Positions 3,572 through 27,708 of a stretch of 64,000 nt of DNA are shown piece by piece. Numbering within the stretch: the stretch's first letter is position 1; every line of letters starts with the position of its first letter. Source of the DNA: an uncultured bacterium. Lineage in GTDB: Bacteria > Hydrothermota > UBA3073 > NMUJ01 > CBEVQO01. The translations under genes and the position numbers were made by a program. The stretch covers positions 103,229 to 167,228 of the forward strand of contig CBEVQO010000002.1 in the NCBI GenBank assembly GCA_965552055.1, given 5' to 3'. Below the pieces are notes generated by a model. It was not told where the DNA came from. It worked only from the letters and a program-made list of their open reading frames with translations, and made no database searches.

Positions 3572-5548
3572 TTATAAAATTTTTAGGATATTTTTCACTT
3601 TTGTAAGTCCTTCTTTTGCTTTATCGTAATGTGGGTCAATTTCAAGTGCTTTCTCAAACGCCATCTTCGCCTCTTCATACCTGCCCATCCCAAATAATGC
3701 TTCGCCCTTCCATCTCCATGCGATTTCGGCATCCTTCTCGGGATTTAATTTAATAAATTTCTCTGCTGTTTGAAGAGCTTCTTCATATTCTCCCAGCAAA
3801 CAGCATGCTTCTGCAAGACCAAGCCAGCCATCGGGCAACATGGGATTCAATTCAACAACCCTGCAAAATGCCTCTTTCATCTCTTTGTATTTCTCCATAT
3901 ATCTATAAGTCCAGCCAAGTTCTGCATAAATCTCCCATTTATCACCTTCATATTTTAATGCTTCTTTAAAAGATTTCTCTGATTCTTCGTAGTTTCTTAA
4001 TTCAAAGAAAACTCTTCCTTTGTAAAACCATGCTGTTGAGTGCTCTGGCTTCATTTCGGTTACTTTATCGAGTATTTCAAGTGCTTTTTCAAATTCGCCA
4101 ATTTCAAATAATGCCCTTCCTTTTATAAAAAGTGCCCTTACATCTTTTTCATCATTTTTTAATATTTCGTCCGCTATTTCAATTGCGCTCCAGTATTTTT
4201 TAAGTCCGATAAACGCACTTGCTTTGAGATGAAGTGCTTCCATATTTTTCTCTTTTTCAAGAACCGCATTACATAATTTTATCACTGATTGGTAATCTTT
4301 TGTCTCTTTCAACATAAGTTCTGCTTCTCTGATTATTGCATCTTTGCATGCTGGGTCAATCTTCCTTGCTTTCCTAAAAGCATTTATTGCCTTTTTATTT
4401 TCACCCATCTCTTCCAGCACTTTTCCAAGATAATACCAGTAAACGGGATTTTTCTCATCGTCTTCTATAGCTTTTTCTATACAATATTTTGCTTCCTTAT
4501 AATTTCCTTCTTCCATGTATTCGATTGCATCCGAGAAAATCGTTGAAGCCGAATATTCTTCTTCTGGCAATTCTATTTTCTCCTTTATTATTTTATCTGA
4601 TGGATTGCCGAAATGAGCATATCCGCACCATACTATTGACCTCTTTCTATAAAATTCATTGCGAAGTTCCAGAAGTATATGTCCTATTGTTTCGCCTTCC
4701 AGCATCTTTCTGTAAAATTTTACAGCAAAATTTGCACTATCATGTGAGGGAATTTTAAAAAATGAACCTATATAATGTCTCACACCTGCTTCAACAAATC
4801 CTTTCGCAATATCAAAAGAAGTTTCACATGCATTTGCAAATATGAGGAAAACTTTTTCTAAAGGTAAATCTTTAACATCTTCCGCTTTTAACTTCTCTCC
4901 TTTGTAAAGTTTCCAGCCATCTTTTTCCGCATGCCCTATGTAATGAATTATGTTATATTTAAATAGATTCGCTTTGATTTCCTGTTTTGATGCCGTAAAT
5001 CCGCCTCGCAAATCAAGTGATTTAATTCTTTTCTTTTTCTTCAATCTGCTTAATCTGTTGATGATTTCAATTGTTTCCAATTTTGCATCTTTTTCTATAT
5101 CTCTATCTTCTGTTGGATTTTTTATTATAAGCATTTTTAAGGGTGGGTAAATTTTTTCGAATTTTCTTTCTCTTTTTATTCTTATAATGCGTGCAATTTG
5201 GAATTTAAGTCCCCAGAATTCATCATCATATATGATTTCATAAGGAATTTGTAAAAGCCCCTCTTCAACTTCAAAAAGCAATTTGCTTCCTTCTCTCAAT
5301 CTTTTAAAAGCGGGTTCAAATTCTTTAAACATAACTTTAAATAAAGTTTTGCCAATAGATTTTATTTCCTCTGTAAACTCATCAAAATCTTTGCCCGGTA
5401 TTACAATATTACATTTTTCATAAAATTTTTCGCAAATTTCCTTTATATTTTCTATTTTTATTTTTTTCTCGGTAATTCCTGCGTATCGGTGGATTTTAGG
5501 TCGCACAAGTATATAATCGTCGATTTTAAAAAGATGAATTTCTTTCAC
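3572..5548 (-). CDS. CHAT (caspase-like) protease with C-terminal TPR array
   Basis: LLQIPYE, IIHYIGHA (catalytic His), IFANACET (catalytic Cys), WCGYAHFGNP; C-terminal half is TPR repeats. Confidence 0.9.
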   Translation of the reverse strand: MKEIHLFKIDDYILVRPKIHRYAGITEKKIKIENIKEICEKFYEKCNIVIPGKDFDEFTEEIKSIGKTLFKVMFKEFEPAFKRLREGSKLLFEVEEGLLQIPYEIIYDDEFWGLKFQIARIIRIKRERKFEKIYPPLKMLIIKNPTEDRDIEKDAKLETIEIINRLSRLKKKKRIKSLDLRGGFTASKQEIKANLFKYNIIHYIGHAEKDGWKLYKGEKLKAEDVKDLPLEKVFLIFANACETSFDIAKGFVEAGVRHYIGSFFKIPSHDSANFAVKFYRKMLEGETIGHILLELRNEFYRKRSIVWCGYAHFGNPSDKIIKEKIELPEEEYSASTIFSDAIEYMEEGNYKEAKYCIEKAIEDDEKNPVYWYYLGKVLEEMGENKKAINAFRKARKIDPACKDAIIREAELMLKETKDYQSVIKLCNAVLEKEKNMEALHLKASAFIGLKKYWSAIEIADEILKNDEKDVRALFIKGRALFEIGEFEKALEILDKVTEMKPEHSTAWFYKGRVFFELRNYEESEKSFKEALKYEGDKWEIYAELGWTYRYMEKYKEMKEAFCRVVELNPMLPDGWLGLAEACCLLGEYEEALQTAEKFIKLNPEKDAEIAWRWKGEALFGMGRYEEAKMAFEKALEIDPHYDKAKEGLTKVKNILKIL

Positions 5549-9713: not shown

Positions 9714-10605
9714 TTTCCCTCCTTTTTATATTTTTGAATTTCTTTTCAATCTCCTTTCTTACTCTGTGAATAATCTGGTCAACATAATTACGATTTATTC
9801 CTAAAAACTCTGCTATTTGTTCATAGCAGGGTCTCCTTGCACTCTCCGGGACAGCTTTCCCCTCCTTTAAATACTTTATTATCTGCCATTCTATTTTTGC
9901 ATCCATTAAAACGAGTTCATCGGTTATTTCATCAATCCTTTTCTTTGTCAATTTCATTATGGTTAAAACTTCTCTCCTATCTTCAAGTATATTGAATTCA
10001 GGCCATAACCACAATTTAAAGACGATTCTTTTAAGAGGGGGAAGTTTCTCTATTTCTTTTCTTATTTCCCTGCAAGTCATTTCCGTTATAATTTTATTTT
10101 CTTCGGTTAGATAGCCAATCAGTCCTTTTGGAGGCTTTGTTTTAGCTCTGGTAAACTTCTTTTCTAACTCTTGCTCTCTTTTGCTTTTCTTCTCCGGAGA
10201 CAATCTTTCTTCAATCTCTTCTAAATTTTTTTCATCCATTTTAATTTCGCGTAATTTTCTTATAAGAATGCGTGGAAGCCAATTTATAAAAATTCCTGTT
10301 ATCCATGTTGTGAATTTAGCTTTTGTTCTGTGATTTGGATCGTATCGTTTTATTATTTCAAGATTTGACAATAAATAATTATAAAGGAAATCTCTGCAAA
10401 TATCTTCTTTTTCATCAGAATCTAACTCCTCGAGTATCTGGAATCCCATCTCTTCTTTTCCTCTGAGTTTACTCAAAATAATGCGTTCAATAAGTCCCTT
10501 TAAAACAGAGATATACTTGTCGAGCGCAAAAATTGCTTTTTTGCAGGCATCTAAATCACAATTATGACACTTTTCTAATTGCTCTCGTGAAACTAACTCA
10601 TTCAT
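9703..10605 (-). CDS. Divergent ECF-type RNA polymerase sigma factor
   Basis: Region-2-like EDICRDF...RYDP...KFTTWITGIFIN; region-4 HTH YEQIAEFLGINRNYVDQIIHRVRK; adjacent zf-HC2 gene. Confidence 0.78.
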   Translation of the reverse strand: MNELVSREQLEKCHNCDLDACKKAIFALDKYISVLKGLIERIILSKLRGKEEMGFQILEELDSDEKEDICRDFLYNYLLSNLEIIKRYDPNHRTKAKFTTWITGIFINWLPRILIRKLREIKMDEKNLEEIEERLSPEKKSKREQELEKKFTRAKTKPPKGLIGYLTEENKIITEMTCREIRKEIEKLPPLKRIVFKLWLWPEFNILEDRREVLTIMKLTKKRIDEITDELVLMDAKIEWQIIKYLKEGKAVPESARRPCYEQIAEFLGINRNYVDQIIHRVRKEIEKKFKNIKRRENVS

Positions 10606-10975: not shown

Positions 10976-11368
10976 TCAATTAAAATCATCTACTTCGTCC
11001 TTTGTGTTTAACTTTACAAAATCTTTTAATTCTTTCTCTTCTGCTTCTTCCAGTAAAACATAACAATTTCTGTTCTTGACTTTTTTAAATTCTAACAATG
11101 CAATTTCGGCAACATCAAAGAATTTCTGGAGCCCGCTGTAAATCCTCTCTGCCTCTTCTTTTATCCTTTGAGGAACTCTCTCTGGATAGGCACACATTAT
11201 TCGCACCATTTGATTTAAATCCTGCAAAAATTTTACAGGAATAACCAGAACATCATATCTCACAAATTCTCTTTTTTCATTTAACATTATTAAAATATGA
11301 TAACCCAGCAATTTACTCAATATCTTCATTGTATTTTTAAATGAACCTCCACTTTTTTCAATCCACAT
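10976..11368 (-). CDS. Hypothetical protein
   Basis: ORF overlapping the end of the ClpX-like gene; GGAGG upstream. Confidence 0.55.
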   Translation of the reverse strand: MWIEKSGGSFKNTMKILSKLLGYHILIMLNEKREFVRYDVLVIPVKFLQDLNQMVRIMCAYPERVPQRIKEEAERIYSGLQKFFDVAEIALLEFKKVKNRNCYVLLEEAEEKELKDFVKLNTKDEVDDFN

Positions 11369-12488
11369 ATCTACCTCCCCTTTTAGATTTGATTTTTACA
11401 TTTAATTCGCCATTTTTTACATCGACAATTATTTTGCCTTCTTTTTGCTGACCGAATATTTCAAATGACATTTCTTCGAGATGACGCATTATAACGCTTT
11501 CTATCGCTCTTGCCCCTGTCTGACGCCTTACAGCTTCTTCTACAATGAAATCTTCTGCACGGGGAGTAATACGAATCTCAAATCCTTCTTCCTGAAATTC
11601 GTTTTTCACCTCCTTCAGTTTCAAATGCAATATTTCTTTTAATGTCTTTTTATCAAGTGGCTCAAAAACAATAATTCTCTGAAAGCGGGCAATGAGTTCT
11701 GGCAGAAATCCATAAGATTGAAACTTTGTTACATCTTCGGCGGTATACTGGTCTATTTCGTATGCTATTTTATTTTCCACACTTTTTATTTCTTTTAAGA
11801 AACCTATTTCCTTTTTAACACTGTGGGTTAAAAATCCGCTAAATGCTCCTATTGCGAAAAATAAGATATTTGAAGTATCGATGTGACCTTCGAGTGACAA
11901 ATCGTCTCTTCCGTAACTTACTTTAGAGCCTTCAACGAGTTTTAGTAATTCGCGCTGAACCCCGTATCCTGATACATCCTTTGTCGTACCAGCACCGGCA
12001 AATCTAATATTGCTGTGACAACCCGCTATCTTGTCAAATTCATCTATCGCAACTACTCCGAATTTCGCAAGAAGCACATTGCCATGTGCAGCCTCTATCA
12101 ATTTGTAAGGTATATTTAACACACTTTCGCCAACATAACCAGTTTCGGAATATTTCGTGATATCAATTATCACATAAGGTAGTTTTAAAATTTTACCGAA
12201 TAACAGTTCTATTATATAGGTCTTGCCGCATCCAGTTGGTCCCATCAATAAATAATTTGTCTTTGGTGGTAGATTTTTCTTTTCTCCGCTTAATATTTTC
12301 TTTACTCTTTTGAAATGGCGATATGCAGCTACGCACATAGCTTTGCGAGCACGCTCCTGACCTCTGTAGCCAAGTTCCTCCAGCTTTTGATAAAGCTCCT
12401 GAGGAGTATAAAGCGGAGCAGACAGGAGTTTATTTATCGCAGCCTCATTTGCCTCAATATGTTCTCTATATCGATAAAATGGCTTCAT
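11358..12488 (-). CDS. ClpX-like AAA+ unfoldase lacking the N-terminal zinc-binding domain
   Basis: GQERA, GPTGCGKT, ETGYVGE, IDEFDKI, KDVSGYGVQRELLK, IGF loop, LPELIARF, TGAR; no C4 zinc finger. Confidence 0.88.
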   Translation of the reverse strand: MKPFYRYREHIEANEAAINKLLSAPLYTPQELYQKLEELGYRGQERARKAMCVAAYRHFKRVKKILSGEKKNLPPKTNYLLMGPTGCGKTYIIELLFGKILKLPYVIIDITKYSETGYVGESVLNIPYKLIEAAHGNVLLAKFGVVAIDEFDKIAGCHSNIRFAGAGTTKDVSGYGVQRELLKLVEGSKVSYGRDDLSLEGHIDTSNILFFAIGAFSGFLTHSVKKEIGFLKEIKSVENKIAYEIDQYTAEDVTKFQSYGFLPELIARFQRIIVFEPLDKKTLKEILHLKLKEVKNEFQEEGFEIRITPRAEDFIVEEAVRRQTGARAIESVIMRHLEEMSFEIFGQQKEGKIIVDVKNGELNVKIKSKRGGRYVD

Positions 12489-12504: not shown

Positions 12505-12533
12505 TTATTACCTATTTCTCAAGTTTTCTTACA
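12505..12533 (-). promoter_or_regulatory. Candidate ECF promoter TGTAAG-N16-GTAATAA upstream of the ClpX-like gene
   Basis: One of five same-spaced copies in the island. Confidence 0.65.
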
Positions 12534-15365
12534 TAACTTTTCTAAATTTCCAAACAAATTTGTTTTCCTTTCTTTGATGGAAGAATGATGTATCTCCAGT
12601 AGTTTTGAAATATCTTCTTCTGTGATCAAATAAACACGATTGCGTGCCCTTGTTACGGCAGTATAAAGCATCTCACGGGTTAAAAAACTTTTGCTTAATC
12701 CTTTTGGAATTACAACTATCACATTGTCAAAATCACTACCCTGACTCTTATGGATGGTAATCGCATAAGCGTAATCAAGTTGTGAGAATTCATTTCTCTT
12801 ATATTTAACCTCCCGATTTAAACAATGAAAATATATTTTCCGCTTTTTCACATAGATTTCTTTATCTTTCACATAGCCTATCATACCATTGAAAACCCAT
12901 TTATCATAATTATTTACATTTTGGATAACCTTATCCTTTATTTTTTCTCTACACCAGAAATCATTCACATACATTTCGTCCTTCAATTCATCTGGTATAA
13001 ATTTTGATTCACTCCTTATAAAATGATTTATCAATAAAGATGAAATTCTTCCTTTTTGACGGGTAGGTGTCAAAATTTCGAGTGCATCTTTTATGACCTC
13101 AAATTCAAAGAAATCGCCTTCACCATACTCTTCCATTATAACTTCTATTGCTTTTTCGATTTCTCCTTTTATATCTCCTTTCCCTATATGTTTAACAGTA
13201 ACAACGGGTTTTCCTTCCTCATTTTTCAAACTATAAATCTCACCTTTAATTTCGTCACCGATTTTTATCCGTTCTTTACTTTGCATCATTTCTCTGAGAA
13301 CTTTAATTTTCTCTCTTTCGGGTACACTTTCGAGGAAAAGTTTTGAGAATTCGGTTATTTTCTTTTGATTTGCTCTATAAATTTTACTCAATTCAACTAT
13401 TTTGCCTTTTCCTGTATTTTTAAAGAAATTGTAAATATCATGAAATGGCTTGCCTGCCTCTACCGGGGGCAATTGATTTACATCTCCCACAAATATAATG
13501 TGTTCCAGTGTATGCTTTTTTATTATCCTGAATAAATCTGCAAGCAATGATGTGCCAACCATTGATGCCTCATCAATTATGAGTGCATGTATAGACAATT
13601 TTTTATCTTCTGGTATTCTCCTTTTTAAAACATAATAATCAAAATCAAAAAATTCTTTCATCTCTTGGGCAATCAATCTATGAATTGTTGTTGCTTTTTC
13701 TCCTCCTATTTCTTTATTTATTTTTACAGTTGCTTTACCTGTTGGAGCCACGATTCTAACTTTTGCAAGTCCATTTATCTGCAATGTATTTACTATTGCC
13801 CCAATTGTATGTGTCTTACCGCTCCCAGCAGGTCCAGTCAAAATACTAACATTAGAACTCAATACCTCTCTTACTGCTGATATTTGCTCCAAATCAAATT
13901 TATCATCTTCGGGATACCTGTAGCCGATAGTGCCTTTTTTGAGTAATTCCTTTATCATTTCTTCTATTAGTTTTTCATCTTCTTTTACATCCTTCAAAGT
14001 AAAAATAATATCTTCTTCTCTTCTCTCAATTTCTACCTTTTCTCTGATGTAATCTTCGTATTGAGTAATCTTTTCAATAAAAGTATCAATGTCCATCGAA
14101 AGTTTTTCTCCTTTTTCCTTTAAATCGTTTAATGTAATAGAGGTATTGCCTTTTTTGAGTTCCTCTTTTAAAATCTTTATGAGTAAAGCCCTTATTCTTT
14201 CTTTTGAGTAAGGAGAATAAAATCTTTTTCTGTATTTTTGCTCCCAGTTGTCTATCTCATCAAATGTTATAGGATGAATATCTTCTTTTGGATTGTAAAT
14301 CATTTCTTCGCACAATAAATAAGGATTATTCTTTTCAACGAGATTTTTAATGTTTATAAAATTCTTTCTGATTTGTTTCTTTATCTCTACCAGTTGTGAT
14401 GGTAAAATTTCGTAATAAATTGCATAATCGTATAAGAATTTATGGAAATTATCGTTTTTGTGTATGATTTTTTCAAGTTCTTTTCTCATTTCTTCTTCAC
14501 CTTCTTCTCCTTTTTCTTCCCATTTTGTAATGAATTGGGAGTATATTTCTCCAAAAGGCTCTTTGCCTTCCTTCAGCACATACATAACCGCTGGTAAGCC
14601 CGGATAAATAAATTTTCTGCCCTCAAGTTCCTCCAGTGCCATCTGAATCCGTGCAGGAAATTCTTCAAGCCTTAAAGCATCTTTTCTGAAATCCATATCT
14701 TCAATATATGCTTTTAGTTTCCCATCATCGTATTGTAAGATTTTCTCCAATTTTTTCAACGCCTCTTTAAGTATAACACATGAAATTTCTGTTACAACGA
14801 AGTTTGCCATATTGCTAAAATATAACTTCCATTCGGGTCTAATATCAAGAACAAGGTCATCGGGAAAATCCTTGCCATATTCTTCAAAGTATTCTATCAT
14901 CTCCTGATACGGAAGGATAAAAATTATATCTTCGGGCTTGAACTCAAAATCTATGAGTAACCCCTTTTTATCTTCTTTTAATTTTATATCGGAAGCTTTT
15001 GCACATCCTACTATTATTCTATTTTCGGAAAGTGGATTTTCACGGCAATAAAAGAATAAATAAGTACCTTTACCCATCCTGCTTAAAAATTGATAAGTTT
15101 CTTCTTTTCTTAATCCTTTTATTCCGAAAAATTTACTGCTTCCTTTAAATTCACTGAAGAGTCCTATTTCCCATACACAAGCTTCCCAGTTTAATGGAGG
15201 TTTTTTATCGGCAAATTCACCGCATCTTAATCTATCTCTGCTATATTTTCCGCGTCTTATATGCGAAAATGATTCGCAATATTTATTCGCTAGCGGATTC
15301 CTGCAAATCCGCCCATTCCAGCCACTATCATGCCAGCATATAAGTATGGTAAGACATTTCATCAT
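12519..15365 (-). CDS. RecD2-like SF1B helicase with Cys-containing WHDSGWNG N-terminal domain
   Basis: GPAGSGKT, APTGKA, IIDEASM, GDVNQLPPV, YAITIHKSQGS, LYTAVTRA; start at ATG 15365 after GGAGG. Confidence 0.9.
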   Translation of the reverse strand: MMKCLTILICWHDSGWNGRICRNPLANKYCESFSHIRRGKYSRDRLRCGEFADKKPPLNWEACVWEIGLFSEFKGSSKFFGIKGLRKEETYQFLSRMGKGTYLFFYCRENPLSENRIIVGCAKASDIKLKEDKKGLLIDFEFKPEDIIFILPYQEMIEYFEEYGKDFPDDLVLDIRPEWKLYFSNMANFVVTEISCVILKEALKKLEKILQYDDGKLKAYIEDMDFRKDALRLEEFPARIQMALEELEGRKFIYPGLPAVMYVLKEGKEPFGEIYSQFITKWEEKGEEGEEEMRKELEKIIHKNDNFHKFLYDYAIYYEILPSQLVEIKKQIRKNFINIKNLVEKNNPYLLCEEMIYNPKEDIHPITFDEIDNWEQKYRKRFYSPYSKERIRALLIKILKEELKKGNTSITLNDLKEKGEKLSMDIDTFIEKITQYEDYIREKVEIERREEDIIFTLKDVKEDEKLIEEMIKELLKKGTIGYRYPEDDKFDLEQISAVREVLSSNVSILTGPAGSGKTHTIGAIVNTLQINGLAKVRIVAPTGKATVKINKEIGGEKATTIHRLIAQEMKEFFDFDYYVLKRRIPEDKKLSIHALIIDEASMVGTSLLADLFRIIKKHTLEHIIFVGDVNQLPPVEAGKPFHDIYNFFKNTGKGKIVELSKIYRANQKKITEFSKLFLESVPEREKIKVLREMMQSKERIKIGDEIKGEIYSLKNEEGKPVVTVKHIGKGDIKGEIEKAIEVIMEEYGEGDFFEFEVIKDALEILTPTRQKGRISSLLINHFIRSESKFIPDELKDEMYVNDFWCREKIKDKVIQNVNNYDKWVFNGMIGYVKDKEIYVKKRKIYFHCLNREVKYKRNEFSQLDYAYAITIHKSQGSDFDNVIVVIPKGLSKSFLTREMLYTAVTRARNRVYLITEEDISKLLEIHHSSIKERKTNLFGNLEKLCKKT

Positions 15366-15396
15366 AGCGGCACCTCCATTACTATCTTCTCTCCTT

Positions 15397-16095
15397 TCAA
15401 ATATCCAAAAATTTTGTCGTTCGTTTGACAGCGTTTTCAATCTCTCTCATATCCTGTGCTGTTAGCGGAGGAGAATATATACCCCTTACCACCCACAATC
15501 CCGATTTTCTTATTTCCCATTTCGGAGAATGTAACCCAAGCCAGTTAGAGGAAGGTTTACATAGCGAACAATTTGCCAAAGTACCTATGAGCTTGTTTTC
15601 TATCTCTTTCCTGTTGCTTTCATTATCCCATAAAATAAACCTGAAACTGAATTGAGTGCGCAATATTTGGGTTATTTTTTCTTCTATTTCTTTCTCTTTT
15701 TCAATATCTCTCAAGTGACCGAATCTCTCTCGATTTTTTCTTGGAGTAAAATCAATTTCCCATACTTCGAGATATGGGTCGTTTTCTCGATTCAACAATG
15801 CCCTGCCTAAATTTTTTCTAAAGATACTTCTATCGGAAGGTTTCGGTTTATTTCTATTCCATTCTGTTCTCCTATTTATAAGAAAATGGTCAGCGATGCG
15901 TGATTTAAAATTTTCTTTCTTATGTGTGCCAACACGAACAATCCTCATCTTTTCGCCACCATGTCCCCATTTCTCTCCTTCTTCATAGAAAAAATAAATT
16001 CCACTATCGGGTAGTGTAACAATATCAAAAGGATACTTTATTACAGGTAGTGTCTCCAGAATTTCATGTAACCATTTACATTTTTCTTCTATCAT
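15397..16095 (-). CDS. GIY-YIG-like nuclease
   Basis: SGIYFFYE...IVRVGTH...KSRIADHF...EIENKLI. Confidence 0.65.
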   Translation of the reverse strand: MIEEKCKWLHEILETLPVIKYPFDIVTLPDSGIYFFYEEGEKWGHGGEKMRIVRVGTHKKENFKSRIADHFLINRRTEWNRNKPKPSDRSIFRKNLGRALLNRENDPYLEVWEIDFTPRKNRERFGHLRDIEKEKEIEEKITQILRTQFSFRFILWDNESNRKEIENKLIGTLANCSLCKPSSNWLGLHSPKWEIRKSGLWVVRGIYSPPLTAQDMREIENAVKRTTKFLDI

Positions 16096-16119: not shown

Positions 16120-16326
16120 TTATTCCTGTTCGACTTTGGGTTCCCAATTTCCGCACACTTCGTTATCTCTCCTTTTATCCTGCCAGTATCCGCACCAGCC
16201 CTCTGCAGATGTTTCGCCCTCTTCACAGGTAACTTCAATATACCCTGTCGCAGGATTGTAGTAACTGCCACTAAAATATTTGCAAGTAGCACAACATCTT
16301 ATATCTGGTCTGATTGAATAACGCAT
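16120..16326 (-). CDS. Small Cys/Trp-rich putative metal-binding protein
   Basis: CCATCKYF...C...GWC...CGNW; TAATG coupling and GGAGG RBS. Confidence 0.65.
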   Translation of the reverse strand: MRYSIRPDIRCCATCKYFSGSYYNPATGYIEVTCEEGETSAEGWCGYWQDKRRDNEVCGNWEPKVEQE

Positions 16327-17102
16327 TACCCCTCCTTTTTTATTTTTACAAGTTTTTCACCTATTTCCTTTATCCCCAATTTTTCAAAATATTTAATGAT
16401 TTCGCTCGGTGTCAGGGGTGCTATCTGCCATATTAAACTATCAAGATGCAACATTGTTATTCTTTTATCGTTTTTCCTGATTTCAGTTAAAATCTCTGTC
16501 CATACTTGCCTTATTTCTTCATCCGATTGTATGCCAAATAACTCTTTGGTAAATTTTCTGACCCTTGAATCAACCGGAATGGGAATCGGTGTAAAATCAA
16601 AATTGTGCTCACCTTTTATTAACAGTGCGATACCGAGGCATTTCATCGCAAAACAAATTGTTTTCGCAGATTTATTCTGCCCCATTATAAAAGCAAGTTT
16701 ATTCCATATATTCAGGAAATCTGTTGCAATACTTTGTGGAGTGCTTTCCCATATTTCTCTTGCAAGTTCACTTCTAAAATATTTTTCAAGGCGATTTAAT
16801 TTTGCTGTTCTCATTCTTTCATTTTCGTAGAATCTTGCAAGATAAAGATGAAGTTCTTTTAATGTGGAAGGTGCAGGTAGATTCTGGAGTTTCTGTCTTA
16901 TCACGGGCCAGTATGCTATTTCTGCTTTGCCTTTTAGCTGATAATCATTCAGTCCCACAGCGAGCATAAGATTTGCGAATGCACCGAATTTGTATCTGTC
17001 AGCAAATATGTGAAGATGCTTCCACTCGGGCTCATTATGTACAATGCTGTCCCATGCATTATAAGGTATTTGACCCAATATTTTGGCAATTTCTCCTTTC
17101 AT
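16326..17102 (-). CDS. Archaeal-type 8-oxoguanine N-glycosylase/DNA lyase (AGOG family)
   Basis: DYQLKGKAE..YW, KTICFAMK, IPIPVDSRV, LHLDSLIW. Confidence 0.82.
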   Translation of the reverse strand: MKGEIAKILGQIPYNAWDSIVHNEPEWKHLHIFADRYKFGAFANLMLAVGLNDYQLKGKAEIAYWPVIRQKLQNLPAPSTLKELHLYLARFYENERMRTAKLNRLEKYFRSELAREIWESTPQSIATDFLNIWNKLAFIMGQNKSAKTICFAMKCLGIALLIKGEHNFDFTPIPIPVDSRVRKFTKELFGIQSDEEIRQVWTEILTEIRKNDKRITMLHLDSLIWQIAPLTPSEIIKYFEKLGIKEIGEKLVKIKKEG

Positions 17103-17114
17103 TTCACCCCTCTT

Positions 17115-20100
17115 TTATTTAAATTTTATTTCTTTTACTTTTTTATCCGATACATCGTAAAACTCAATCACTTCTAATCGAGGGAATTTTTCTTTTGTTA
17201 TTTTACTCACATCGCAATCTTCATCAACTTTTAATCTTTTTATATTTTTAGGTAATTTTTCGGGGTCAATTGAACTAATTTTTATCGGCCAAACTCTCCT
17301 CATATCAACTTCTTCTACTTCATCAAGTTTACTTAAATCAATATCATGCGCACCTATTCTTTTAACACTTCGAGGTATAACATCGTAGGTTAACTTCTTT
17401 AAAGGTGTTTTCCTAACATCAAGTTCTTCAAGTTCTTCCATTCCGCTCAAATCTATTTCTCTCAAATTTTCACATCTATAAGCATCTATCCTTTTCACTC
17501 TCTTTGGTAACTTTCTGTAATCAAGAGAGGTTATGGAAGTCCAGCTTACATCAAGTTCTTCAATCTCTTCAAGTTCACTCAAATCTATATCACCTGCTCC
17601 TATTTTCTTTACACTACGCGGTATAACATAATAGGTCAACTTCTTTAAAGGGGTTTCCCTTACATCAAGCACTTCAAGTCCTTCCACCCCGCTCAAATCT
17701 ATTTCTCTCAAATTTTCGCACCGCCAAGCATCTATCCTTTTCACTCTCTTTGGTAACTTCCTGTAATCAAGAGAAGTTATGGAAGTCCATCTTACATCAA
17801 GCTCTTCAAGTTCTTCCATTCCACTCAAATTCATTTCTCTCAGATTTTTGCATCCGGAAGCATTTATCCGCCTCACTCTCTTTGGTAACTTTCTGTAATC
17901 AAGAGAGGTTATGGAAGTCCTGCTTACATCAAGTTCTTCAATCTCTTCGAGTTCACTTAAATCTATATCACCTGCTCCTATTTTCTTCACACTGCGGGGT
18001 ATAACATCATAGGTCAACTTCTTTAAAGATGTTTCCCTAACATCAAGCTCTTCGATTCCTTCAATCCTGCTCAAATCTATTTCTTTCAGATTTTCGCACT
18101 CATAGACATCTATCCTTTTCACTCTCTTTGGCAATTTCCTGTAATCAAGAGAGGTTACGGAAGTCCTGCTTATATTAAGTTCCGCAAGTCCTTCCATTCC
18201 ACTCAAATCTATTTCTCTTAGATTTTGGCAGTAAGAAGCATCTATCCTTTTTACTTTCTCTGGTAACTTTCTGTAATCAAGAGAGGTTATGGAAGTCCAG
18301 CTTACGTCAAGTTCTTCAAGTTCTTCAAGTTCACTCAAATCTATATCACCTGCTCCTATTTTCTTTACACTGCGGGGTATAACATCATAGGTCAACTTCT
18401 TTAAAGGTGTTTCCTTCACATCAAGTTTTTCAAGCCCTTCAATTCCACTCAAATCTATTTCTCTCAAATTTTTACACTTGGAGGCATATATCATTTTCAC
18501 TCTCTTTGGCAATTTATTAAGAGAAGTTATGGAAGTCCTGCTTACATCAAGTTCTTCAAGCCCTTCCATCCTACTCAAATCTATTTTTATCAGATTTTCG
18601 CACCGACGAGCATCTATCCTTTTAACTTTCTTTGGTAATTTCTTGTAATTAAGAGAAGTTATGGAAGTCCTACTCACATCAAGTACTTCAAGTTCTTCCA
18701 TTCTGCTCAAATCTATTCCTTTCAAATTTTCGCAGTCGGAAGCATTTATCATTTTCACTCTTTTCGGTAACTTCCTGTAATCAAGAGAGGTTATGGGAGT
18801 CTCATTTACATAAAGTTCTTCAAGTTCTTCCATTCCGCTCAAATCTATTTCTCTCAAATTTTCGCATTCAGGGGCATGCATCATTTTCACTCTCTTTGGT
18901 AACTTCCTGTAATCAAGAGAGGTTATGGGAGTCCAGCTTACATCAAGCACTTCAAGTTCTTCAAGTTCACTCAAATCTATATCACCTGCTCCTATTATCT
19001 TCACACTTCGAGGTATAACATCATAGGTCAGCTTCTTTAAATGTGTTTCCCTCACATCAAGCACTTCAAGTCCTTCAATTCCACTCAAATCTATTTCTCT
19101 CAGATTTTTGCAGTAAGAAGCATCTATCATTTTCACTCTCTTTGGTAACTTTCTGTAATCAAGAGAGGTTATGGAAGTCACGCTTACATCAAGTTCATCA
19201 AGTTCTTCGAGCTTTTCAATTCCACTCAAATCTATTTCTCTGAGATTTTCGCACCACGAAGCATCTATCTTTTTCACTCTTTTTGGTAATTTCTTGTAAT
19301 CAAGAGAGGTTATGGAAGTCCTGCTTACATCAAGTTCTTCAATCTCTTCAAGTTCACTTAAATCTATATCACCTGCTCCTATTTTCTTCACACTGCGAGG
19401 TATAACATCATAGGTCAACTTCTTTAAAGGTGTTTCCCTCACATCAAGTTCTTCAAGCCCTTCAATTCCGCTCAAATCTATTTCTTTCAAATTTTCGCAG
19501 TCGGAAGCATTTATCTTTTTCACTCTTTTTGGTAATTTCCGGTAATCAAGAGAGGTTATGGAAGTCCCGCTTACATTAAGTGTTTCAAGTTCTTTCATTC
19601 CACTCAAATCTATTTCTCTGAGATTTTTGCATCCAGAAGCATCTATCCATTTCACTCTCTTTGGTAATTTCTTAAGAGAGGTTATGGAAGTCCTACTCAC
19701 ATTAAGCACTTCGAGTTCTTCCACCCCGCTCAAATCTATTTCTTTCAAATTTTCGCAGTCGGAAGCATTTATCTTTTTCACTCTTTTTGGTAATTTCCGG
19801 TAATCAAGAGAGGTTATGGAAGTCCCGCTTACATTAAGTGTTTCAAGTTCTTTCATTCCACTCAAATCTATTTCTCTGAGATTTTTGCATCCAGAAGCAT
19901 CTATCCATTTCACTCTCTTTGGTAATTTCTTAAGAGAGGTTATGGAAGTCCTACTCACATTAAGCACTTCGAGTTCTTCCATTCCGCTCAAATCTATTTC
20001 TTTCAAATTTTCGCACCACGAAGCATCTATCTTTTTCACTCTCTTTGGTGACTTTCTGTAATCAAGAGAGGTTATGGAAGTCCCGCTTACATTAAGTTCT

Positions 20101-20474
20101 TCAAGTTCTTCAAATTCACTCAAATCTATTTCACCTGCTCTTATTCTCTTCACACTTCGAGGTATGACATCACAGGTCAACTTCTTTAAAGGTGTTTCTC
20201 TCACATCAAGTTCTTCAAGTTCTTCCATTCCGCTCAAATCTATTTCTCTCAAATTTTCGCATCCATAAGCATCTATCTTTTTCACTCTCTTTGGTAACTT
20301 TCTGTAATCAAGAGAGGTTATAGAAGTCTCGCTCACATCAAGTTCCTTAATTTCTTCGAGTTTATGCAGGTCATCGCTTTCATACACTTCTGCATCTTCT
20401 ATACGCAATTCTCTAATGAATTCATCCCATACCACTTTGACTCCCCACTTTTTCAAAAATTCTTCCATTTTCAT
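17115..20474 (-). CDS. Large cytoplasmic leucine-rich-repeat protein
   Basis: 17 A-type units (LEELDVSxTSITSL..KLPKRVKxIDAxxCxNLxEIDLS) and 7 B-type units (LDVRETPLKKLTYDVIPRSVKKIGAGDIDLS); no signal peptide. Confidence 0.92.
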   Translation of the reverse strand: MKMEEFLKKWGVKVVWDEFIRELRIEDAEVYESDDLHKLEEIKELDVSETSITSLDYRKLPKRVKKIDAYGCENLREIDLSGMEELEELDVRETPLKKLTCDVIPRSVKRIRAGEIDLSEFEELEELNVSGTSITSLDYRKSPKRVKKIDASWCENLKEIDLSGMEELEVLNVSRTSITSLKKLPKRVKWIDASGCKNLREIDLSGMKELETLNVSGTSITSLDYRKLPKRVKKINASDCENLKEIDLSGVEELEVLNVSRTSITSLKKLPKRVKWIDASGCKNLREIDLSGMKELETLNVSGTSITSLDYRKLPKRVKKINASDCENLKEIDLSGIEGLEELDVRETPLKKLTYDVIPRSVKKIGAGDIDLSELEEIEELDVSRTSITSLDYKKLPKRVKKIDASWCENLREIDLSGIEKLEELDELDVSVTSITSLDYRKLPKRVKMIDASYCKNLREIDLSGIEGLEVLDVRETHLKKLTYDVIPRSVKIIGAGDIDLSELEELEVLDVSWTPITSLDYRKLPKRVKMMHAPECENLREIDLSGMEELEELYVNETPITSLDYRKLPKRVKMINASDCENLKGIDLSRMEELEVLDVSRTSITSLNYKKLPKKVKRIDARRCENLIKIDLSRMEGLEELDVSRTSITSLNKLPKRVKMIYASKCKNLREIDLSGIEGLEKLDVKETPLKKLTYDVIPRSVKKIGAGDIDLSELEELEELDVSWTSITSLDYRKLPEKVKRIDASYCQNLREIDLSGMEGLAELNISRTSVTSLDYRKLPKRVKRIDVYECENLKEIDLSRIEGIEELDVRETSLKKLTYDVIPRSVKKIGAGDIDLSELEEIEELDVSRTSITSLDYRKLPKRVRRINASGCKNLREMNLSGMEELEELDVRWTSITSLDYRKLPKRVKRIDAWRCENLREIDLSGVEGLEVLDVRETPLKKLTYYVIPRSVKKIGAGDIDLSELEEIEELDVSWTSITSLDYRKLPKRVKRIDAYRCENLREIDLSGMEELEELDVRKTPLKKLTYDVIPRSVKRIGAHDIDLSKLDEVEEVDMRRVWPIKISSIDPEKLPKNIKRLKVDEDCDVSKITKEKFPRLEVIEFYDVSDKKVKEIKFK
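19468..19983. repeat. Near-perfect 258-bp tandem duplication inside the LRR gene
   Basis: Sequence at 19468 recurs at 19726; antisense shadow ORFs 19558 and 19816 are offset by 258. Confidence 0.85.
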
Positions 20475-20487: not shown

Positions 20488-21174
20488 TTATAATGTTGTG
20501 AGGTCTAATTTTATTTTCAGTAAAATTTCTTTTTCTTTTCTTATGATGCATAGGAAACTCTTTTTCTCAATTGGGAAAGTTACCTCTTTTTCACCCACCG
20601 CTATGAGATTGGCATCTTCATACACCTCAAACACAAAATCTTTAATTTCTTCTTCCTTCTCTTTATCCTTAACCTTTTCCACTATTAATTTTATTTTGCC
20701 ATCTAAATTTACAAATTTTAAAGTTGCATCTACTTTTTTTGAAGTTACTTCATATATGCTTTCCCTAAGCGTTGCTGTCCTGTGCTTGTGAGGTCCTCCT
20801 CGCAGTGCACGACGCCTTGCCTTCATTCTAACCTTTGCGGAAATGTTCCATAGATTAACAATGTTTAAAAAATATGCTCCACGGCGTGTTATTAAAAAGG
20901 CAATCACAGGTAGTTTCGCAAGATTCTTTATCCTTTCTTTTTCTTCAGCCGATAATTTCATTTCTTCATCCCAGCAAAAATCTATAACCCTCTGTAAACA
21001 ATAATCGCAAACCTCAAGATGACTGATGAATTGCAGATGTTGATAAAGAGGAAGTTTTCCTTTTAAAAATTTCACAATATAATCATCATCGTATTTATCA
21101 CATTTTCTGGATAATGCCCTTTCTCTGTAAACAGAAGATAGCCATTGGAGTGCCTTTTCGAACTCGTCCTTCAT
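20488..21174 (-). CDS. zf-HC2 anti-sigma factor, soluble (paralog of 9051-9713)
   Basis: FLKGKL...HLEVCDYC; C-terminal domain aligns with the paralog (KDKE...NLIA...EVT...EKK...IRKEK). Confidence 0.82.
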   Translation of the reverse strand: MKDEFEKALQWLSSVYRERALSRKCDKYDDDYIVKFLKGKLPLYQHLQFISHLEVCDYCLQRVIDFCWDEEMKLSAEEKERIKNLAKLPVIAFLITRRGAYFLNIVNLWNISAKVRMKARRRALRGGPHKHRTATLRESIYEVTSKKVDATLKFVNLDGKIKLIVEKVKDKEKEEEIKDFVFEVYEDANLIAVGEKEVTFPIEKKSFLCIIRKEKEILLKIKLDLTTL

Positions 21175-21851
21175 CCTATCTCCTTTTCAACTTCTTTCCA
21201 TAATTTCTCCAATTCTTTTTTGATGTCGGTGAGAATCCTGCTCACATAATTTGGAGTTTTGTTGACTATGCGGGATATCCGGCGGGGAGGGAGACCCTCC
21301 CCTTCTAAATAACTTTGAATCCATACCCTCGCTATGAACTTCTTTGCGCCACGAAGCTTCTGCAGGTAGGCGTCAACTTTTGTTCGAAAGAGTTTCAGTT
21401 TCTTTTCAAATCTTTTTTCTTCCTCTTCCTGTATTATCTCACCTTCAAGGTCATCCGTTACTTTTGAAGAGATTAAAGATTCTACATCACTATCTTCGTC
21501 TTTTGCTAAATCAGTAAATGGTATTATCTGTGGTTCTTTCTTTTCTTTACGAAGCTGGTTCATAAGCCAGTATTTGAAGCATTTATTACTCCATGCGAGA
21601 AATGAGCCTTTTTCTGGATTGAATTTTTTAATTTGTTTTCCCATAATGAGATAATAGTACAAGAATCTACAAACGAATTCTTCGATTTTTGTGGAAGAAA
21701 AGTAAATGTTCTTTGAGATAAGCAATCGCTTGCATCTTTTCCAGAACAGCTCTATTACTTTTTCGATATCACCAAACATTTTGGCACAAGATTCATCTTT
21801 ACACCTATAACATTCCATTGCGTATTTTTTGATTATAATGTCTTTCACCAA
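21171..21851 (-). CDS. Divergent ECF-type sigma factor
   Basis: KFNPEKGSFLAW...MNQLRK region 2; PRRISRIVNKTPNYVSRILTDIKK HTH; coupled to zf-HC2 gene. Confidence 0.75.
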   Translation of the reverse strand: MVKDIIIKKYAMECYRCKDESCAKMFGDIEKVIELFWKRCKRLLISKNIYFSSTKIEEFVCRFLYYYLIMGKQIKKFNPEKGSFLAWSNKCFKYWLMNQLRKEKKEPQIIPFTDLAKDEDSDVESLISSKVTDDLEGEIIQEEEEKRFEKKLKLFRTKVDAYLQKLRGAKKFIARVWIQSYLEGEGLPPRRISRIVNKTPNYVSRILTDIKKELEKLWKEVEKEIG

Positions 21852-25278: not shown

Positions 25279-25307
25279 ATATTAAACTAAATTACGATTT
25301 TCTTACA
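25279..25307 (-). promoter_or_regulatory. Candidate ECF promoter TGTAAG-N16-TTAATAT (variant)
   Basis: Same -35 and spacing, degenerate -10. Confidence 0.5.
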
Positions 25308-26562
25308 AATCTATTTTCAGAATTAACCAGTCGTTCCTTTTAAAGGGCTTTTCATCTGTCGTTAATAATATTTTTCTTTTAGCTTTTAAATTAAGATATT
25401 TCTTCCATTCTTCGCCTCTCCATAATCCGTCTGTTAGTATTACAAGCATATCCTGTGCTTTTATCCGCTTACTTACTTCAGCGAGCGCTTCTGTAGGGTC
25501 TGTTCCACCCCTACCTTTTATCTTAAAACTCACTTTATTGGTAAATCTCTTAAAACCATAAAATTTAACATCCCAGCATCCCCAGTAAACTTCTGCTTCT
25601 TTGCTCATGCTTTTAATCTCTCCCATAAATTGTTGGAGTTGTTTTTTGTCTATACTTCCACTCGTATCTAAAAGGACGAAAACCCTGCCCTTTTCGAGAT
25701 ATAATCTCCCTTTCGCATCCGGTACCTTTCTGCTGGGACGCTTCCATGTGGGAATGCAAAAACTCGAAATCCATTCCCTGTAATATGTGCGTAAAAGGCG
25801 TTTCCAGTTTACTTTGCTTTTAAATAGAATATCAACAAGTTCTTCCAAGCCAGCGGGAAGATATCCTGCTGTTTTTGCTAATACCAAAGCACGCCTGAAC
25901 TCATCCCTGATTTTTTCCTTTTCTTCATCTCTGACTCCCGAACCCTCGCTAGGATATTTCTTTTCTTCTCCTCCGGCTCCTGAACCCTCGCTAGGATATT
26001 TCTTTTCTTCTCCTCCGGCTCCTGAACTCTCATCTCCTAAATCCTTGCGAGGATAAAGGTCGCTTCCTTTTATAATATTAAGGATACGGTCTATTCTTAT
26101 TTTTCCCGATTTTACCTTTGATAATAATTCTTTGTAAATTTCTTCGGTACTCATCCTTTTTATTTCATATACGGATTTTCCAATCAATTGAGCGATTGTA
26201 AAAGGAGTTATTTCCCTGTAAGATAGTTTGAAATTAAGTTCATCTAAGTATTGATTGACTTTGCAATCGGCTGCTATATTCCATAGCAGGGCATCTATTT
26301 CATCCAGATTTTTTATCCTTTCGCAGTGTTCAAGCACTATATGAAGCAACTCGTGAAATAATAATTTAACGCCTTCTGCAATTGTGTGAATTTTTGATGT
26401 ATTCAAAAAGATTTCCAATCCATTCGTATAAGCCGGAACTTCAGATTCTTCGTCTATTCTTAGATATTTCTGAACCTTCCACAACACAGGGACAAAAAAG
26501 GGAAATAATACAGAACTAATTTCAATCGCTGCTTCAAATATGCTTTTCAACAGGTTGCTCAT
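25303..26562 (-). CDS. DUF2201-type metallopeptidase plus vWA-like domain protein
   Basis: AYTNG, FHELLHIVLEH (HExxH), WNIAADCKVN, LLDTSGSI (MIDAS), GRGGTD, ILTDG. Confidence 0.88.
   Translation of the reverse strand: MSNLLKSIFEAAIEISSVLFPFFVPVLWKVQKYLRIDEESEVPAYTNGLEIFLNTSKIHTIAEGVKLLFHELLHIVLEHCERIKNLDEIDALLWNIAADCKVNQYLDELNFKLSYREITPFTIAQLIGKSVYEIKRMSTEEIYKELLSKVKSGKIRIDRILNIIKGSDLYPRKDLGDESSGAGGEEKKYPSEGSGAGGEEKKYPSEGSGVRDEEKEKIRDEFRRALVLAKTAGYLPAGLEELVDILFKSKVNWKRLLRTYYREWISSFCIPTWKRPSRKVPDAKGRLYLEKGRVFVLLDTSGSIDKKQLQQFMGEIKSMSKEAEVYWGCWDVKFYGFKRFTNKVSFKIKGRGGTDPTEALAEVSKRIKAQDMLVILTDGLWRGEEWKKYLNLKAKRKILLTTDEKPFKRNDWLILKIDL
25940..26027. repeat. 42-bp in-frame tandem duplication in the inter-domain linker
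   Basis: Encodes SGAGGEEKKYPSEG twice. Confidence 0.9.
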
Positions 26563-26574
26563 AATACCTCCTTT

Positions 26575-27708
26575 TTACCATTCTTTTTTAAACTTTGCAA
26601 CTTTTGTTCCTAAATCTTTAATTAATTCTTTGAGAGATGTATCTATCATTTTGAGCATTTCTTCGTAAATTTCTCTCCTCTTTTTGACTGGCAACATCCT
26701 GAAGAAAAGAGAAAGAGTAAGCATCACCATTTCTCTGTCCTCAGAAAGAGCAGGAATGAAAATCACTTCCTCAATTTTCTTATATTTTTCAGGGAAATTT
26801 TTTAACAAATAGTGAGCAAGATGTGTGAAAAAGAGATATTTTATATCCATCGTTTTCAATTTATCTCCGGGATATTTTTTATTCTTAATACACTCTTCTA
26901 TATCCGGGAAATTCCTTGTTACTTTGATAAACTGATAAAATTTACTTCCAACTTCGCCTCCCAAAAATGCCTGACAATCTTCTTCGTAATACTTTTCATT
27001 TTTGTTTAGAAATTCGCTGAGCATCGTCCAGCTTCTTGGAGTCGGATAAGGTTCTACAGCTGTACCCGAATCAGGTGGTTTGTAAAAATCCTCCGGAAAC
27101 TTCATCAAATATGCTATTACATTGGGGTTAGTTCTCTCTTTTGTTGACTCATAAGAAATCCATTCTTTAACGGTGGCAGGTTCAACTTCATATACTGCTG
27201 CGCGATTCATTATCGGAGTGGCTAATTCTGTTGCTACATCGCTGTATTCCGGGGGATTGCCTGCACCCACCACCATTACATCGGGATGAAGTTTCAACCA
27301 TCCAACTCTTTTATCCAGCAACAATTTGAATAAAATGCTCTGTACATCGGGACGCAATGTGTTAGATATTTCATCCAGAAATAATACACCCGGACACTTA
27401 CTTAATGCATGCAATGGTCTGTTATACTTGAACTGAAGCTTTCCATCATTTTCACGGGGTATAAAGAAATCTTCCTGTGTAACCTCATATAATCTAATAT
27501 CGAGCAAGATAAAGGAATTTTTAATTTCTCCGTCGGACAAACTATCATCCCACTCCAGATATTTCAATCCCATCTCTTTTGCTTTTTGTTCTGCAAATTC
27601 ATGAACCTGCTCAGATTTACCGATACCAGGACCTCCAAATAGTATCACAGTGCGAGGATAATGACGATTGAGTGTCTCCAATACACGATTTATTTTTAAT
27701 TTCTTCAT
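26575..27708 (-). CDS. MoxR-like AAA+ ATPase
   Basis: GGPGIGKS, LFLDEI, GAGNP, PTPRSW; start 27708 after RBS. Confidence 0.88.
   Translation of the reverse strand: MKKLKINRVLETLNRHYPRTVILFGGPGIGKSEQVHEFAEQKAKEMGLKYLEWDDSLSDGEIKNSFILLDIRLYEVTQEDFFIPRENDGKLQFKYNRPLHALSKCPGVLFLDEISNTLRPDVQSILFKLLLDKRVGWLKLHPDVMVVGAGNPPEYSDVATELATPIMNRAAVYEVEPATVKEWISYESTKERTNPNVIAYLMKFPEDFYKPPDSGTAVEPYPTPRSWTMLSEFLNKNEKYYEEDCQAFLGGEVGSKFYQFIKVTRNFPDIEECIKNKKYPGDKLKTMDIKYLFFTHLAHYLLKNFPEKYKKIEEVIFIPALSEDREMVMLTLSLFFRMLPVKKRREIYEEMLKMIDTSLKELIKDLGTKVAKFKKEW

What the first reader, a model, noticed from the sequence alone, without database searches (positions are those of the whole stretch)
17115..20474. Cytoplasmic LRR protein with near-identical DNA repeats and hypervariable residues at fixed positions
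Seen: unit order A B AAAAA B AA B AAAA B AA B AA B A B. The framework is conserved at DNA level, but the dipeptide before the Cys varies (YG,SW,SG,SD,SG,SD,SW,SY,PE,SD,RR,SK,SY,YE,SG,WR,YR), as do the residue before TSIT/TPIT (E,G,R,V,W) and the one before I-D/N-A (K,R,W,M). A fresh 258-bp duplication is present. Established: these positions lie on or beside the concave ligand-binding face of LRRs, as in VLRs and NLRs. Inference: a receptor diversified by repeat shuffling, placed directly downstream of a sigma/anti-sigma pair, with no signal peptide or effector domain.
Basis: partly seen in the sequence, partly recalled or inferred. Interest (0 to 1): 0.72.

Follow-up and report, generated by a model that had tools for sequence, protein, structure and literature searches.

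The report
Expanded hypervariable cytoplasmic leucine-rich-repeat protein
An uncultured bacterium carries one gene with 24 look-alike leucine-rich-repeat units whose predicted binding-face residues vary far more than the scaffold, so it likely encodes a fast-evolving intracellular binder, probably of invader proteins, though its target and any link to the neighbouring sigma factor are untested.

Summary
An intact 1,119-aa ORF has 17 A and 7 B two-LRR units in the stated order, the listed variable residues and a 256-bp exact duplication. 'Near-identical' overstates it: A units average 84% DNA identity. Variation clusters on the xxLxLxx face (pN 0.27 vs 0.07, p=0.0016), which lies on or just after the model's main strands. 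Two columns pass a positive-selection test on both trees; the face as a whole is only near omega 1. B units are nearly constant. The gene is a giant member of a small undescribed family of 3-unit LRR proteins (four found). It is not an NLR, VLR or DGR target: no NOD domain, cassettes, reverse transcriptase or template. Shuffling is inferred; recombination tests are equivocal and strain polymorphism of the array is untested. It sits in a defence-like cluster, but the one homologue locus read lacks the sigma pair. Best reading: a stand-alone diversified intracellular binder, like fungal high-internal-conservation repeats. This scan noted the same pattern on other DNA.

The parts
17115..20474 (-). 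LRR gene, 1,119 aa, about 129 kDa, pI 5.3; N-cap, 24 two-LRR units, C-cap; no signal peptide, TM helix or effector domain
   Evidence: full-length AlphaFold2 mean pLDDT 89.7, repeat pattern throughout
20343..20474 (-). N-terminal cap (aa 1-44), shared with the short family members (EFLxK...IYxSxDLxxL)
   Evidence: alignment with P0250, P0265, P0204, P0252; low pLDDT in residues 1-19
17310..20342 (-). Repeat array (aa 45-1055): 17 variable A units (22+22 aa) in runs of 1-5, separated by 7 nearly constant B units (22+16 aa). Variable A columns 2, 5, 22, 24, 26, 27, 44
   Evidence: B face pN 0.11 vs pS 0.31
19468..19981 (-). Fresh tandem duplication: 256 bp exact at offset 258 (aa 165-250 and 251-336)
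17115..17309 (-). C-terminal cap (aa 1056-1119); a divergent version with changed surface residues is seen in one low-depth contig of run X1
20488..21174 (-). Soluble anti-sigma-like protein with HxxxCxxC motif, 13 nt upstream of the LRR gene; paralogue of the zf-HC2 protein at 9051-9713
   Evidence: no Pfam hit itself; 29% identical, E 2e-15, to the zf-HC2 paralogue
21171..21851 (-). Divergent ECF-like sigma factor, overlapping the anti-sigma-like gene by 4 nt; paralogue of 9703-10605
   Evidence: TIGR02937 E 2.4e-8, under cut-off
16326..17102 (-). AGOG-type N-glycosylase/DNA lyase, 12 nt downstream of the LRR gene
   Evidence: PF09171 E 1.8e-24
12519..16095 (-). Defence-candidate neighbours: PDC-M57B-like protein (15397-16095) and PDC-S68-like RecD helicase (12519-15440)
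   Evidence: PADLOC E 1.4e-64 and 1.9e-100; these are candidate systems, function untested
3572..5548 (-). CHAT (caspase-like)-TPR protein, 11.6 kb downstream, same strand; possible but unproven partner of the sigma pairs
   Evidence: PF12770 E 1.7e-16; similar sigma/zf-HC2/TPR-CHAT order in G031

Best explanation
The gene encodes a repeat protein predicted to be a cytoplasmic LRR solenoid, likely expanded from a three-unit ancestor by intragenic duplication, whose variable face likely binds proteins of invading phages or mobile elements and would act simply by binding them. Each A unit carries about seven variable surface residues on a fixed scaffold; runs of one to five A units between constant B spacers would give eight separate binding patches along one chain. 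Duplication and unequal exchange keep the scaffold uniform and change unit number; ordinary point mutation plus selection enriches Trp, Tyr, Arg, Ser and Gly at the face. Shown: architecture, face-biased variation, selection signal at two to four columns, one fresh duplication, the short family. Inferred: cytoplasmic location, ongoing exchange, invader ligands, action by sequestration, co-transcription with the sigma pair.
For: Face omega 1.11-1.37 vs 0.20-0.23 for the scaffold (p<1e-12 on both trees); M1a vs M2a p=0.0015 and 8e-8, columns 5 and 27 at posterior >=0.96 on both trees. In 82 neutral mosaic simulations none reached the observed LRT of 12.96 and 2 passed 5.99. Tree-free: 9 of 20 first/second codon positions on the face have three or more alleles vs 1 of 12 four-fold scaffold sites and 2 of 68 other first/second positions. 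All 9 Trp of the repeat region are at face columns. Model of aa 810-1119: pLDDT 95, main strands at A columns 44-1-2 and 22-24, so 44, 2, 22, 24 are in the strand and 5, 26, 27 just after it. Four short relatives share both caps and the unit and vary at the same columns; in three of four, units are 58-86% identical within a protein, against 34-35% between the window protein and P0250, which fits lineage-wise homogenisation. Neighbours include two PDC-S68-like and one PDC-M57B-like defence candidates, a CHAT-TPR protein and two MoxR-like/DUF2201 pairs. One X1 contig has a C-cap with D1084V, E1085K and conservative L1081I.
Against: The face class as a whole does not exceed omega 1 significantly (p=0.62 and 0.12; counting dN/dS 0.88); only 16 distinct units of 44 codons were available and my codon model is simple. 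No ligand evidence of any kind. The defence labels are PADLOC candidates, not tested systems. The G078 homologue lies beside a photolyase and DUF1722 gene, not defence genes. The cluster shows no compositional sign of recent transfer (GC 0.347 vs 0.356; 51 of 167 genome windows as distant) and no integrase hit lies on its contig. The X1 variant is one 151-nt contig at depth 3.7 and may be a paralogue or another organism.
Confidence: 0.55

Rival explanations
1. The LRR protein is the variable sensor of a sigma/zf-HC2/CHAT relay: ligand binding triggers cleavage or release of the soluble anti-sigma and switches on the cluster.
For: 13-nt gap behind the anti-sigma-like gene. In G031 a related sigma and a zf-HC2 protein are followed by a TPR-CHAT protein whose TPRs are 114-bp DNA repeats at about 80% match with variable residues. 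The second sigma has a weak hit to the type III-E RpoE model (E 0.0026, 17.7 bits vs cut-off 100). Csx29 cleaving the RpoE-binding Csx30 is the precedent (PMC9825189, passages); ECF sigma plus TPR beside caspase systems is noted in PMC8195603 (passages).
Against: No protease or signalling domain on the LRR protein; CHAT-TPR is 11.6 kb away behind the other sigma pair; the G078 homologue has no such neighbours; G031 is one locus, its sigma is only weakly similar (E 2e-4) and has no LRR neighbour in the 16 kb read. No binding was tested.
Confidence: 0.18
2. A recent repeat expansion with relaxed constraint: surface positions drift because they tolerate change, and no ligand is driving them.
For: Face omega not significantly above 1; single occurrence of the giant form; slippage-prone DNA.
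Against: Other polar surface columns stay fixed (permutation among polar columns p=0.0016); face positions hold more alleles than silent sites; Trp confined to the face; B units in the same array keep their face nearly constant.
Confidence: 0.12
3. A modular nucleic-acid reader with a TALE-like code, the variable residues of each unit reading bases.
For: At the four most variable columns 23 of 68 residues are Arg/Lys and 14 are Trp/Tyr vs 7 acidic; neighbours are DNA enzymes; top Foldseek row is a TLR9 domain. Altae-Tran et al. suggested this for Dictyostelium LRRs (PMC10392669, passages).
Against: Protein is net acidic (pI 5.3) and the ten face columns hold 53 acidic vs 42 basic residues; the TLR9 match is 15% identity and ties with dozens of LRRs; about seven columns vary, not one di-residue; units are irregular (38-47 aa).
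Confidence: 0.08
4. A present or former target of a diversity-generating retroelement (adenine mutagenesis).
For: Columns 5 and 22 are NNG with third G in 17 of 17 units; columns 2 and 24 are NAT-like, as AAG/AAT templates would give.
Against: No RVT_1 or bAvd match in a 97%-complete genome; no template copy, best outside blastn E 0.012 over 21 nt; column 26 varies at T/C/G positions and 14 of 63 variable positions have no A allele. Fixed third G also follows from needing Trp, Met, Arg.
Confidence: 0.03
5. Assembly artefact: the array was stitched from collapsed or mixed repeats.
For: A 256-bp exact repeat is longer than typical short reads; copy number there could be wrong. The protein is not in the exact-match collection while three of four neighbours tested are.
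Against: Frame is open over 24 units, 16 of 17 A units are distinct at DNA level and only that one exact tract exceeds 56 nt; the gene lies inside a 495-kb contig without N; an X1 contig runs from the C-cap past the stretch end towards the array with 2 differences.
Confidence: 0.04

Closest known systems
High-internal-conservation (HiC) WD, ANK and TPR repeats of fungal NLRs (Podospora het-d/het-e; Dyrka et al. 2014, PMC4986451, passages read)
   Same: Internally conserved repeats (meets the 85% over 100 aa rule: 824 of 1,119 residues), few positively selected positions on the concave face, concerted evolution, intracellular.
   Different: LRR rather than WD/ANK/TPR; no NOD or effector domain; single gene with no paralogues to exchange with; bacterial; strain polymorphism not shown here.
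Flavobacterium psychrophilum tandem LRR locus (Altae-Tran et al. 2020, PMC10392669, abstract, introduction and passages read)
   Same: Bacterial ~22-residue LRRs with hypervariable positions on one side and signs of recombination.
   Different: There up to 19 genes of 2-14 LRRs with signal peptide and T9SS tail; here one gene of about 50 LRR turns, no export signal, two unit types.
Dictyostelium purpureum hypervariable LRR proteins (same paper, passages)
   Same: Two consecutive hypervariable residues per repeat, rich in Tyr/Asp.
   Different: Eukaryotic family of over 90 genes; here one gene, about seven variable columns.
IRREKO and short bacterial LRRs (Matsushima 2010, PMC2946307, passages); InlJ 3bz5, Leptospira 4u06, YopM 1g9u
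   Same: Same fold (VIA-align Z 19.6-21.3, rmsd 6.5-7.8 A over 280-290 residues); every second turn has the LxxIDLS segment and a second short strand on the convex side.
   Different: 22-residue turns with CxxL alternating with an LPxx-type turn in a 44-residue unit; 14-20% identity; no clear best match, so no family membership.
Protochlamydia LGR proteins (Eugster 2007, PMC2216083, abstract only)
   Same: Lineage-restricted bacterial LRR arrays grown by concatenation.
   Different: 28-residue RI-like repeats behind a large N-terminal region, six paralogues, intracellular symbiont; adjacent concatenation there, whereas similarity here does not follow position.

Membership tests
HiC repeat binder (works-like comparison) | >=85% identity over >=100 aa between repeats | tested here: met
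   8 offsets reach 85%; 824 of 1,119 residues covered
HiC repeat binder (works-like comparison) | positively selected sites on the concave face | tested here: met
   columns 5 and 27 on both trees, 22/26/44 on one or weakly; model; whole face not significantly above omega 1
HiC repeat binder (works-like comparison) | repeat number or order polymorphism among strains | not tested
   no second full allele was found; only flanks and caps were compared with other runs
NLR / STAND receptor | NACHT or NB-ARC domain and effector domain on the same chain | tested here: not met
   Pfam shows LRR only; model is repeat solenoid end to end
Variable lymphocyte receptor-like assembly | incomplete gene plus flanking donor LRR cassettes | tested here: not met
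   tblastn and blastn find no other copy in the genome; definition recalled, not read
DGR target | reverse transcriptase and Avd in the genome | tested here: not met
   0 matches for PF00078 and PF22296, genome 97% complete
DGR target | template repeat | tested here: not met
DGR target | variation confined to template adenines | tested here: inconclusive
   columns 2, 5, 22, 24 fit, column 26 does not; 14 of 63 variable positions have no A allele
F. psychrophilum-type surface LRR array | signal peptide, T9SS tail, tandem gene copies | tested here: not met
IRREKO LRR | 21-residue LxxLxLxxNxLxxLDLxx(N/L/Q/x)xx in consecutive repeats | tested here: not met
   turns are 22+22 or 22+16; only alternate turns carry the IDLS segment
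sigma / zinc anti-sigma / CHAT protease relay | sigma, zf-HC2-type protein and CHAT protease in one cluster | tested here: met
   CHAT gene is 11.6 kb from the LRR gene
sigma / zinc anti-sigma / CHAT protease relay | conserved linkage of this LRR family to the relay | tested here: inconclusive
   absent at the single homologue locus read; three archaeal-labelled homologues had no reachable context
sigma / zinc anti-sigma / CHAT protease relay | physical or functional coupling of LRR to anti-sigma or protease | not tested
   no complex prediction or experiment
TALE-like nucleic-acid reader | one repeat reads one base through a di-residue | not testable with these tools
   needs binding assays

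The most novel reading that the evidence does not exclude
A prokaryotic innate receptor in which a reshufflable LRR array of variable units and constant spacers, with no NOD domain, senses invaders and hands the signal in trans to a soluble zinc anti-sigma/CHAT protease relay, the LRR filling the slot held by an internally conserved TPR array in G031.
Probability: 0.18. Interest if true: 0.8.

Novelty: new variant of a known kind. Interest (0 to 1): 0.45.

Why it matters
Internally conserved repeats with a selected binding face are well described in fungal NLRs and in surface LRRs of a fish pathogen. A stand-alone, apparently cytoplasmic version in an uncultured bacterium, grown from a 3-unit family found in both bacteria and DPANN-labelled archaea, extends that strategy to effector-less binders and shows an eight-fold expansion with a constant spacer unit. 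If the ligands are phage proteins it is a new anti-phage binder class; either way the 44-residue unit is a natural variable scaffold. Interest is held down because the pattern is known, this scan has met it repeatedly, and neither ligand nor strain variation is shown.

Tried and rejected
Close relatives of the giant form: none among 7,985 scored candidates of 615-1,959 aa (best identities 21-33%), 0 of 40 related genomes, only 23-26% generic LRR loci in genome contigs, 6 weak loci (E 3e-6 or worse) in metagenome contigs, not examined further, none in three viral-contig scans, none in phages, one 30% generic hit in plasmids, no fused or long family member among 7,981 candidates of 582-2,000 aa (weak evidence by the tool's own note). 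Phylum search with the family profile: 2 of 271 other genomes, G078 (its protein was in the query, so it matches by construction) and G256 (E 2e-10, fetched as L029, not analysed). Anti-sigma and sigma profiles over the same 271 genomes gave mostly weak zf-HC2 or ECF hits; I read only the best one, G031. Atlas search of the window protein gave no result; the homologue P0252 gave generic LRR clusters. No RNA holder listed, which says nothing on expression. Promoter/terminator scan at chance level (21 vs 27.3; 4 vs 5.4). Secretion: one FHIPEP gene, flanked by what I read by eye as FlhB- and FlhF-like genes, so probably flagellar; no VipB. No tRNA in the window. Horizontal-island reading dropped for lack of compositional or integrase support. 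Literature: 0 papers for LRR+archaea+DPANN+hypervariable and 0 for WOR-3+leucine-rich repeat; searches listed nothing on this family; the library lacks most subscription papers. No supplements were read; those of PMC10392669 may list similar clusters. Bacterial gasdermin preprint 10.1101/2021.06.07.447441 (passages) shows LRRs fused to proteases, unlike here.
Full report
What is there. The minus-strand ORF 17115-20474 encodes 1,119 aa. It consists of a 44-aa N-cap, 24 units and a 64-aa C-cap. Each A unit is two 22-residue LRR turns (LDVSxTSITSLDYRKLPKRVK and xIDAxxCENLREIDLSGMEELEE); each B unit is a 22- plus a 16-residue turn lacking the CxNL segment. A units are 84% identical in DNA on average (77-100%), B units 89%, and 44-aa A units 76% in protein. 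Only one exact tract is long (256 bp); the other eleven of 45 nt or more are 45-56 nt. There is no hydrophobic segment and no non-LRR domain.

Where the variation sits. I fixed the ten xxLxLxx surface columns from the motif before counting. They have pN 0.269 against 0.070 elsewhere (p=1.3e-4; 1.6e-3 against polar columns only). The AlphaFold2 model of aa 810-1119 (16-row alignment that includes shifted copies of the gene itself; pLDDT 95, pTM 0.90) puts the main strands at columns 44-1-2 and 22-24; that these strands form the concave sheet is LRR textbook (PMC2946307, passages). The tool returns no coordinates, so solvent exposure is inferred from the motif, not measured. The full-length model keeps the pattern (pLDDT 89.7, pTM 0.57). 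Fold searches return generic LRRs at 12-20% identity with no outstanding match.

Is it selection? A codon model on 16 distinct A units (one exact duplicate dropped; two gaps added to the three 42-aa units; three codons removed from the 47-aa unit) gives scaffold omega 0.20-0.23 and face omega 1.11-1.37. The two classes differ strongly, but the face class is not significantly above 1 (p=0.62, 0.12). A random-sites test does find a positively selected class (p=0.0015 and 8e-8 on two trees), with columns 5 and 27 at posterior 0.96 or more on both, and 22, 26, 44 less steadily. Mosaic ancestry can fake this, so I simulated neutral data in four freely recombining blocks: 0 of 82 reached the observed statistic, 2 of 82 passed the nominal 5% level. 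A tree-free count agrees: 9 of 20 face first/second positions have three or more alleles against 1 of 12 four-fold sites, although codon bias may depress the latter. All 9 Trp are on the face and 15 of 17 units have a distinct four-residue combination. B units are different: face pN 0.11, below pS 0.31, so they look like constant spacers.

Is it shuffled? One fresh duplication is plain. Similarity does not follow position (Mantel rho -0.12, p=0.87) and the first and last A units are each other's closest match (95%), which does not fit growth by adjacent duplication alone, though a single burst would also give this. Tests for exchange inside units disagree: PHI-like p=0.006-0.023, but p=0.55 when same-codon pairs are removed; clonal simulations reach the observed incompatibility in 9 of 200 (all sites) and 47 of 200 (non-face sites). 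So shuffling is likely but not shown. A retroelement is unlikely: no RT, Avd or template, although the NNG pattern at columns 5 and 22 remains curious.

Relatives. No close long relative exists in the collections searched. The exhaustive HMMER search and a profile search exposed four short proteins with the same N-cap, unit and C-cap: P0250 (247 aa), P0204 (332 aa), P0265 (306 aa) and P0252 (274 aa), each with three A-type units and no B unit. Their sources label them Pacearchaeota (two), Aenigmatarchaeota and Hydrothermales. P0252 matches an ORF in G078, a genome of the window's phylum, so the host probably belongs to the phylum NCBI now lists as Caldifarciminota (the older name WOR-3 is recalled). 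The three archaeal-labelled proteins vary at the same columns and their units are 58-86% alike within a protein. I infer expansion from a three-unit form; with four relatives and no rooted tree the direction is parsimony only.

Other samples. Runs X1-X3 hold close relatives of the flanks: of 34, 32 and 13 contigs laid upstream, 29, 23 and 11 are at least 95% alike. In X1 two contigs cover the C-cap: one with 2 differences, and one of 151 nt at depth 3.7 with 11 differences in 92 nt. Its listed changes give L1081I, D1084V, E1085K and one silent change, and its loose end reads by hand as IG where the window has RR after the last DM strand. This hints that surface residues differ within the population, but it is one low-depth contig. 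The array itself was not compared with these runs, so unit number and order in other strains stay open.

Neighbourhood. The gene is 13 nt behind an anti-sigma-like gene that overlaps an ECF-like sigma gene, and 12 nt ahead of an AGOG glycosylase. The same-strand cluster 3572-31108 holds a second, paralogous sigma/zf-HC2 pair, two PDC-S68-like helicases and a PDC-M57B-like gene, a ClpX-like ATPase, a CHAT-TPR protein and two MoxR-like/DUF2201 pairs. That is a conflict-type gene set, but composition is ordinary. In G031 a related sigma and a zf-HC2 protein precede a TPR-CHAT protein with 114-bp internal DNA repeats, which makes a sensor role for repeat arrays in such clusters plausible. Against it, the G078 homologue stands alone behind a photolyase.

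How it likely works. I take the protein for an intracellular binder with up to eight variable patches on a fixed scaffold, kept uniform by duplication and exchange and diversified by mutation and selection, acting by binding invader proteins without an effector of its own (0.55). Rivals: sensor of the sigma/anti-sigma/CHAT relay (0.18), relaxed drift (0.12), nucleic-acid code (0.08), assembly artefact (0.04), DGR relic (0.03).

Comparison and verdict. It works like the HiC repeats of fungal NLRs (PMC4986451, passages) and the hypervariable LRRs of Altae-Tran et al. (PMC10392669, abstract, introduction and passages), but is not an NLR, VLR, DGR target or surface LRR array. I found no paper on this family. 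Earlier notes of this scan describe the same pattern in phage, CPR and algal DNA and pointed me to those comparators; none matched this sequence. New variant of a known kind; interest 0.45.

Noticed in passing
window 8496-9032 and 6298-8397 (-): Second PDC-S68-like helicase appears split into a 178-aa N-terminal piece and a 699-aa ORF; 34% and 42% identical to the intact copy at 12519-15440.
   Followed up: partly
window 9051-10605 and 20488-21851 (-): Two paralogous sigma/zf-HC2-type pairs, each followed within a few genes by a PDC-S68-like helicase, suggesting an old duplication of a module; sigma profile found no other genome at E<=1e-5 among 271.
   Followed up: partly
window 25303-27768 and 28763-31108 (-): Two MoxR-like AAA plus DUF2201 (metallopeptidase-vWA) pairs, 59% and 50% identical.
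   Followed up: no
window 25918-26031: 42-bp repeat (2.7 copies) in the first DUF2201 gene; one X2 contig lacks one copy, so unit number varies there.
   Followed up: no
window 16120-16326 (-): 68-aa Cys-rich ORF (CCATC...C...WC...C) abutting the AGOG gene; not searched.
   Followed up: no
window 16326-17102 (-): AGOG-type N-glycosylase, a family I recall as mostly archaeal, directly behind an LRR gene whose relatives are largely archaeal-labelled.
   Followed up: no
L047 5396-10853 (G031:C60): Sigma, 187-aa ORF, 562-aa zf-HC2 protein and TPR-CHAT protein whose 38-aa TPRs are about 80% matched in DNA with variable residues in the IHxxLG segment.
   Followed up: partly
L029 (G256:C5:18413-18928): 505-aa ORF with a weak match to the family profile (E 2e-10); fetched, not analysed.
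   Followed up: no
window 17310-20342, A columns 5 and 22: Third codon position is G in 17 of 17 units at both columns while positions 1-2 vary; unexplained beyond the amino acids used.
   Followed up: partly
window 11358-12488 (-): ClpX-like ATPase under the family cut-off (229 vs 359 bits) inside the cluster.
   Followed up: no
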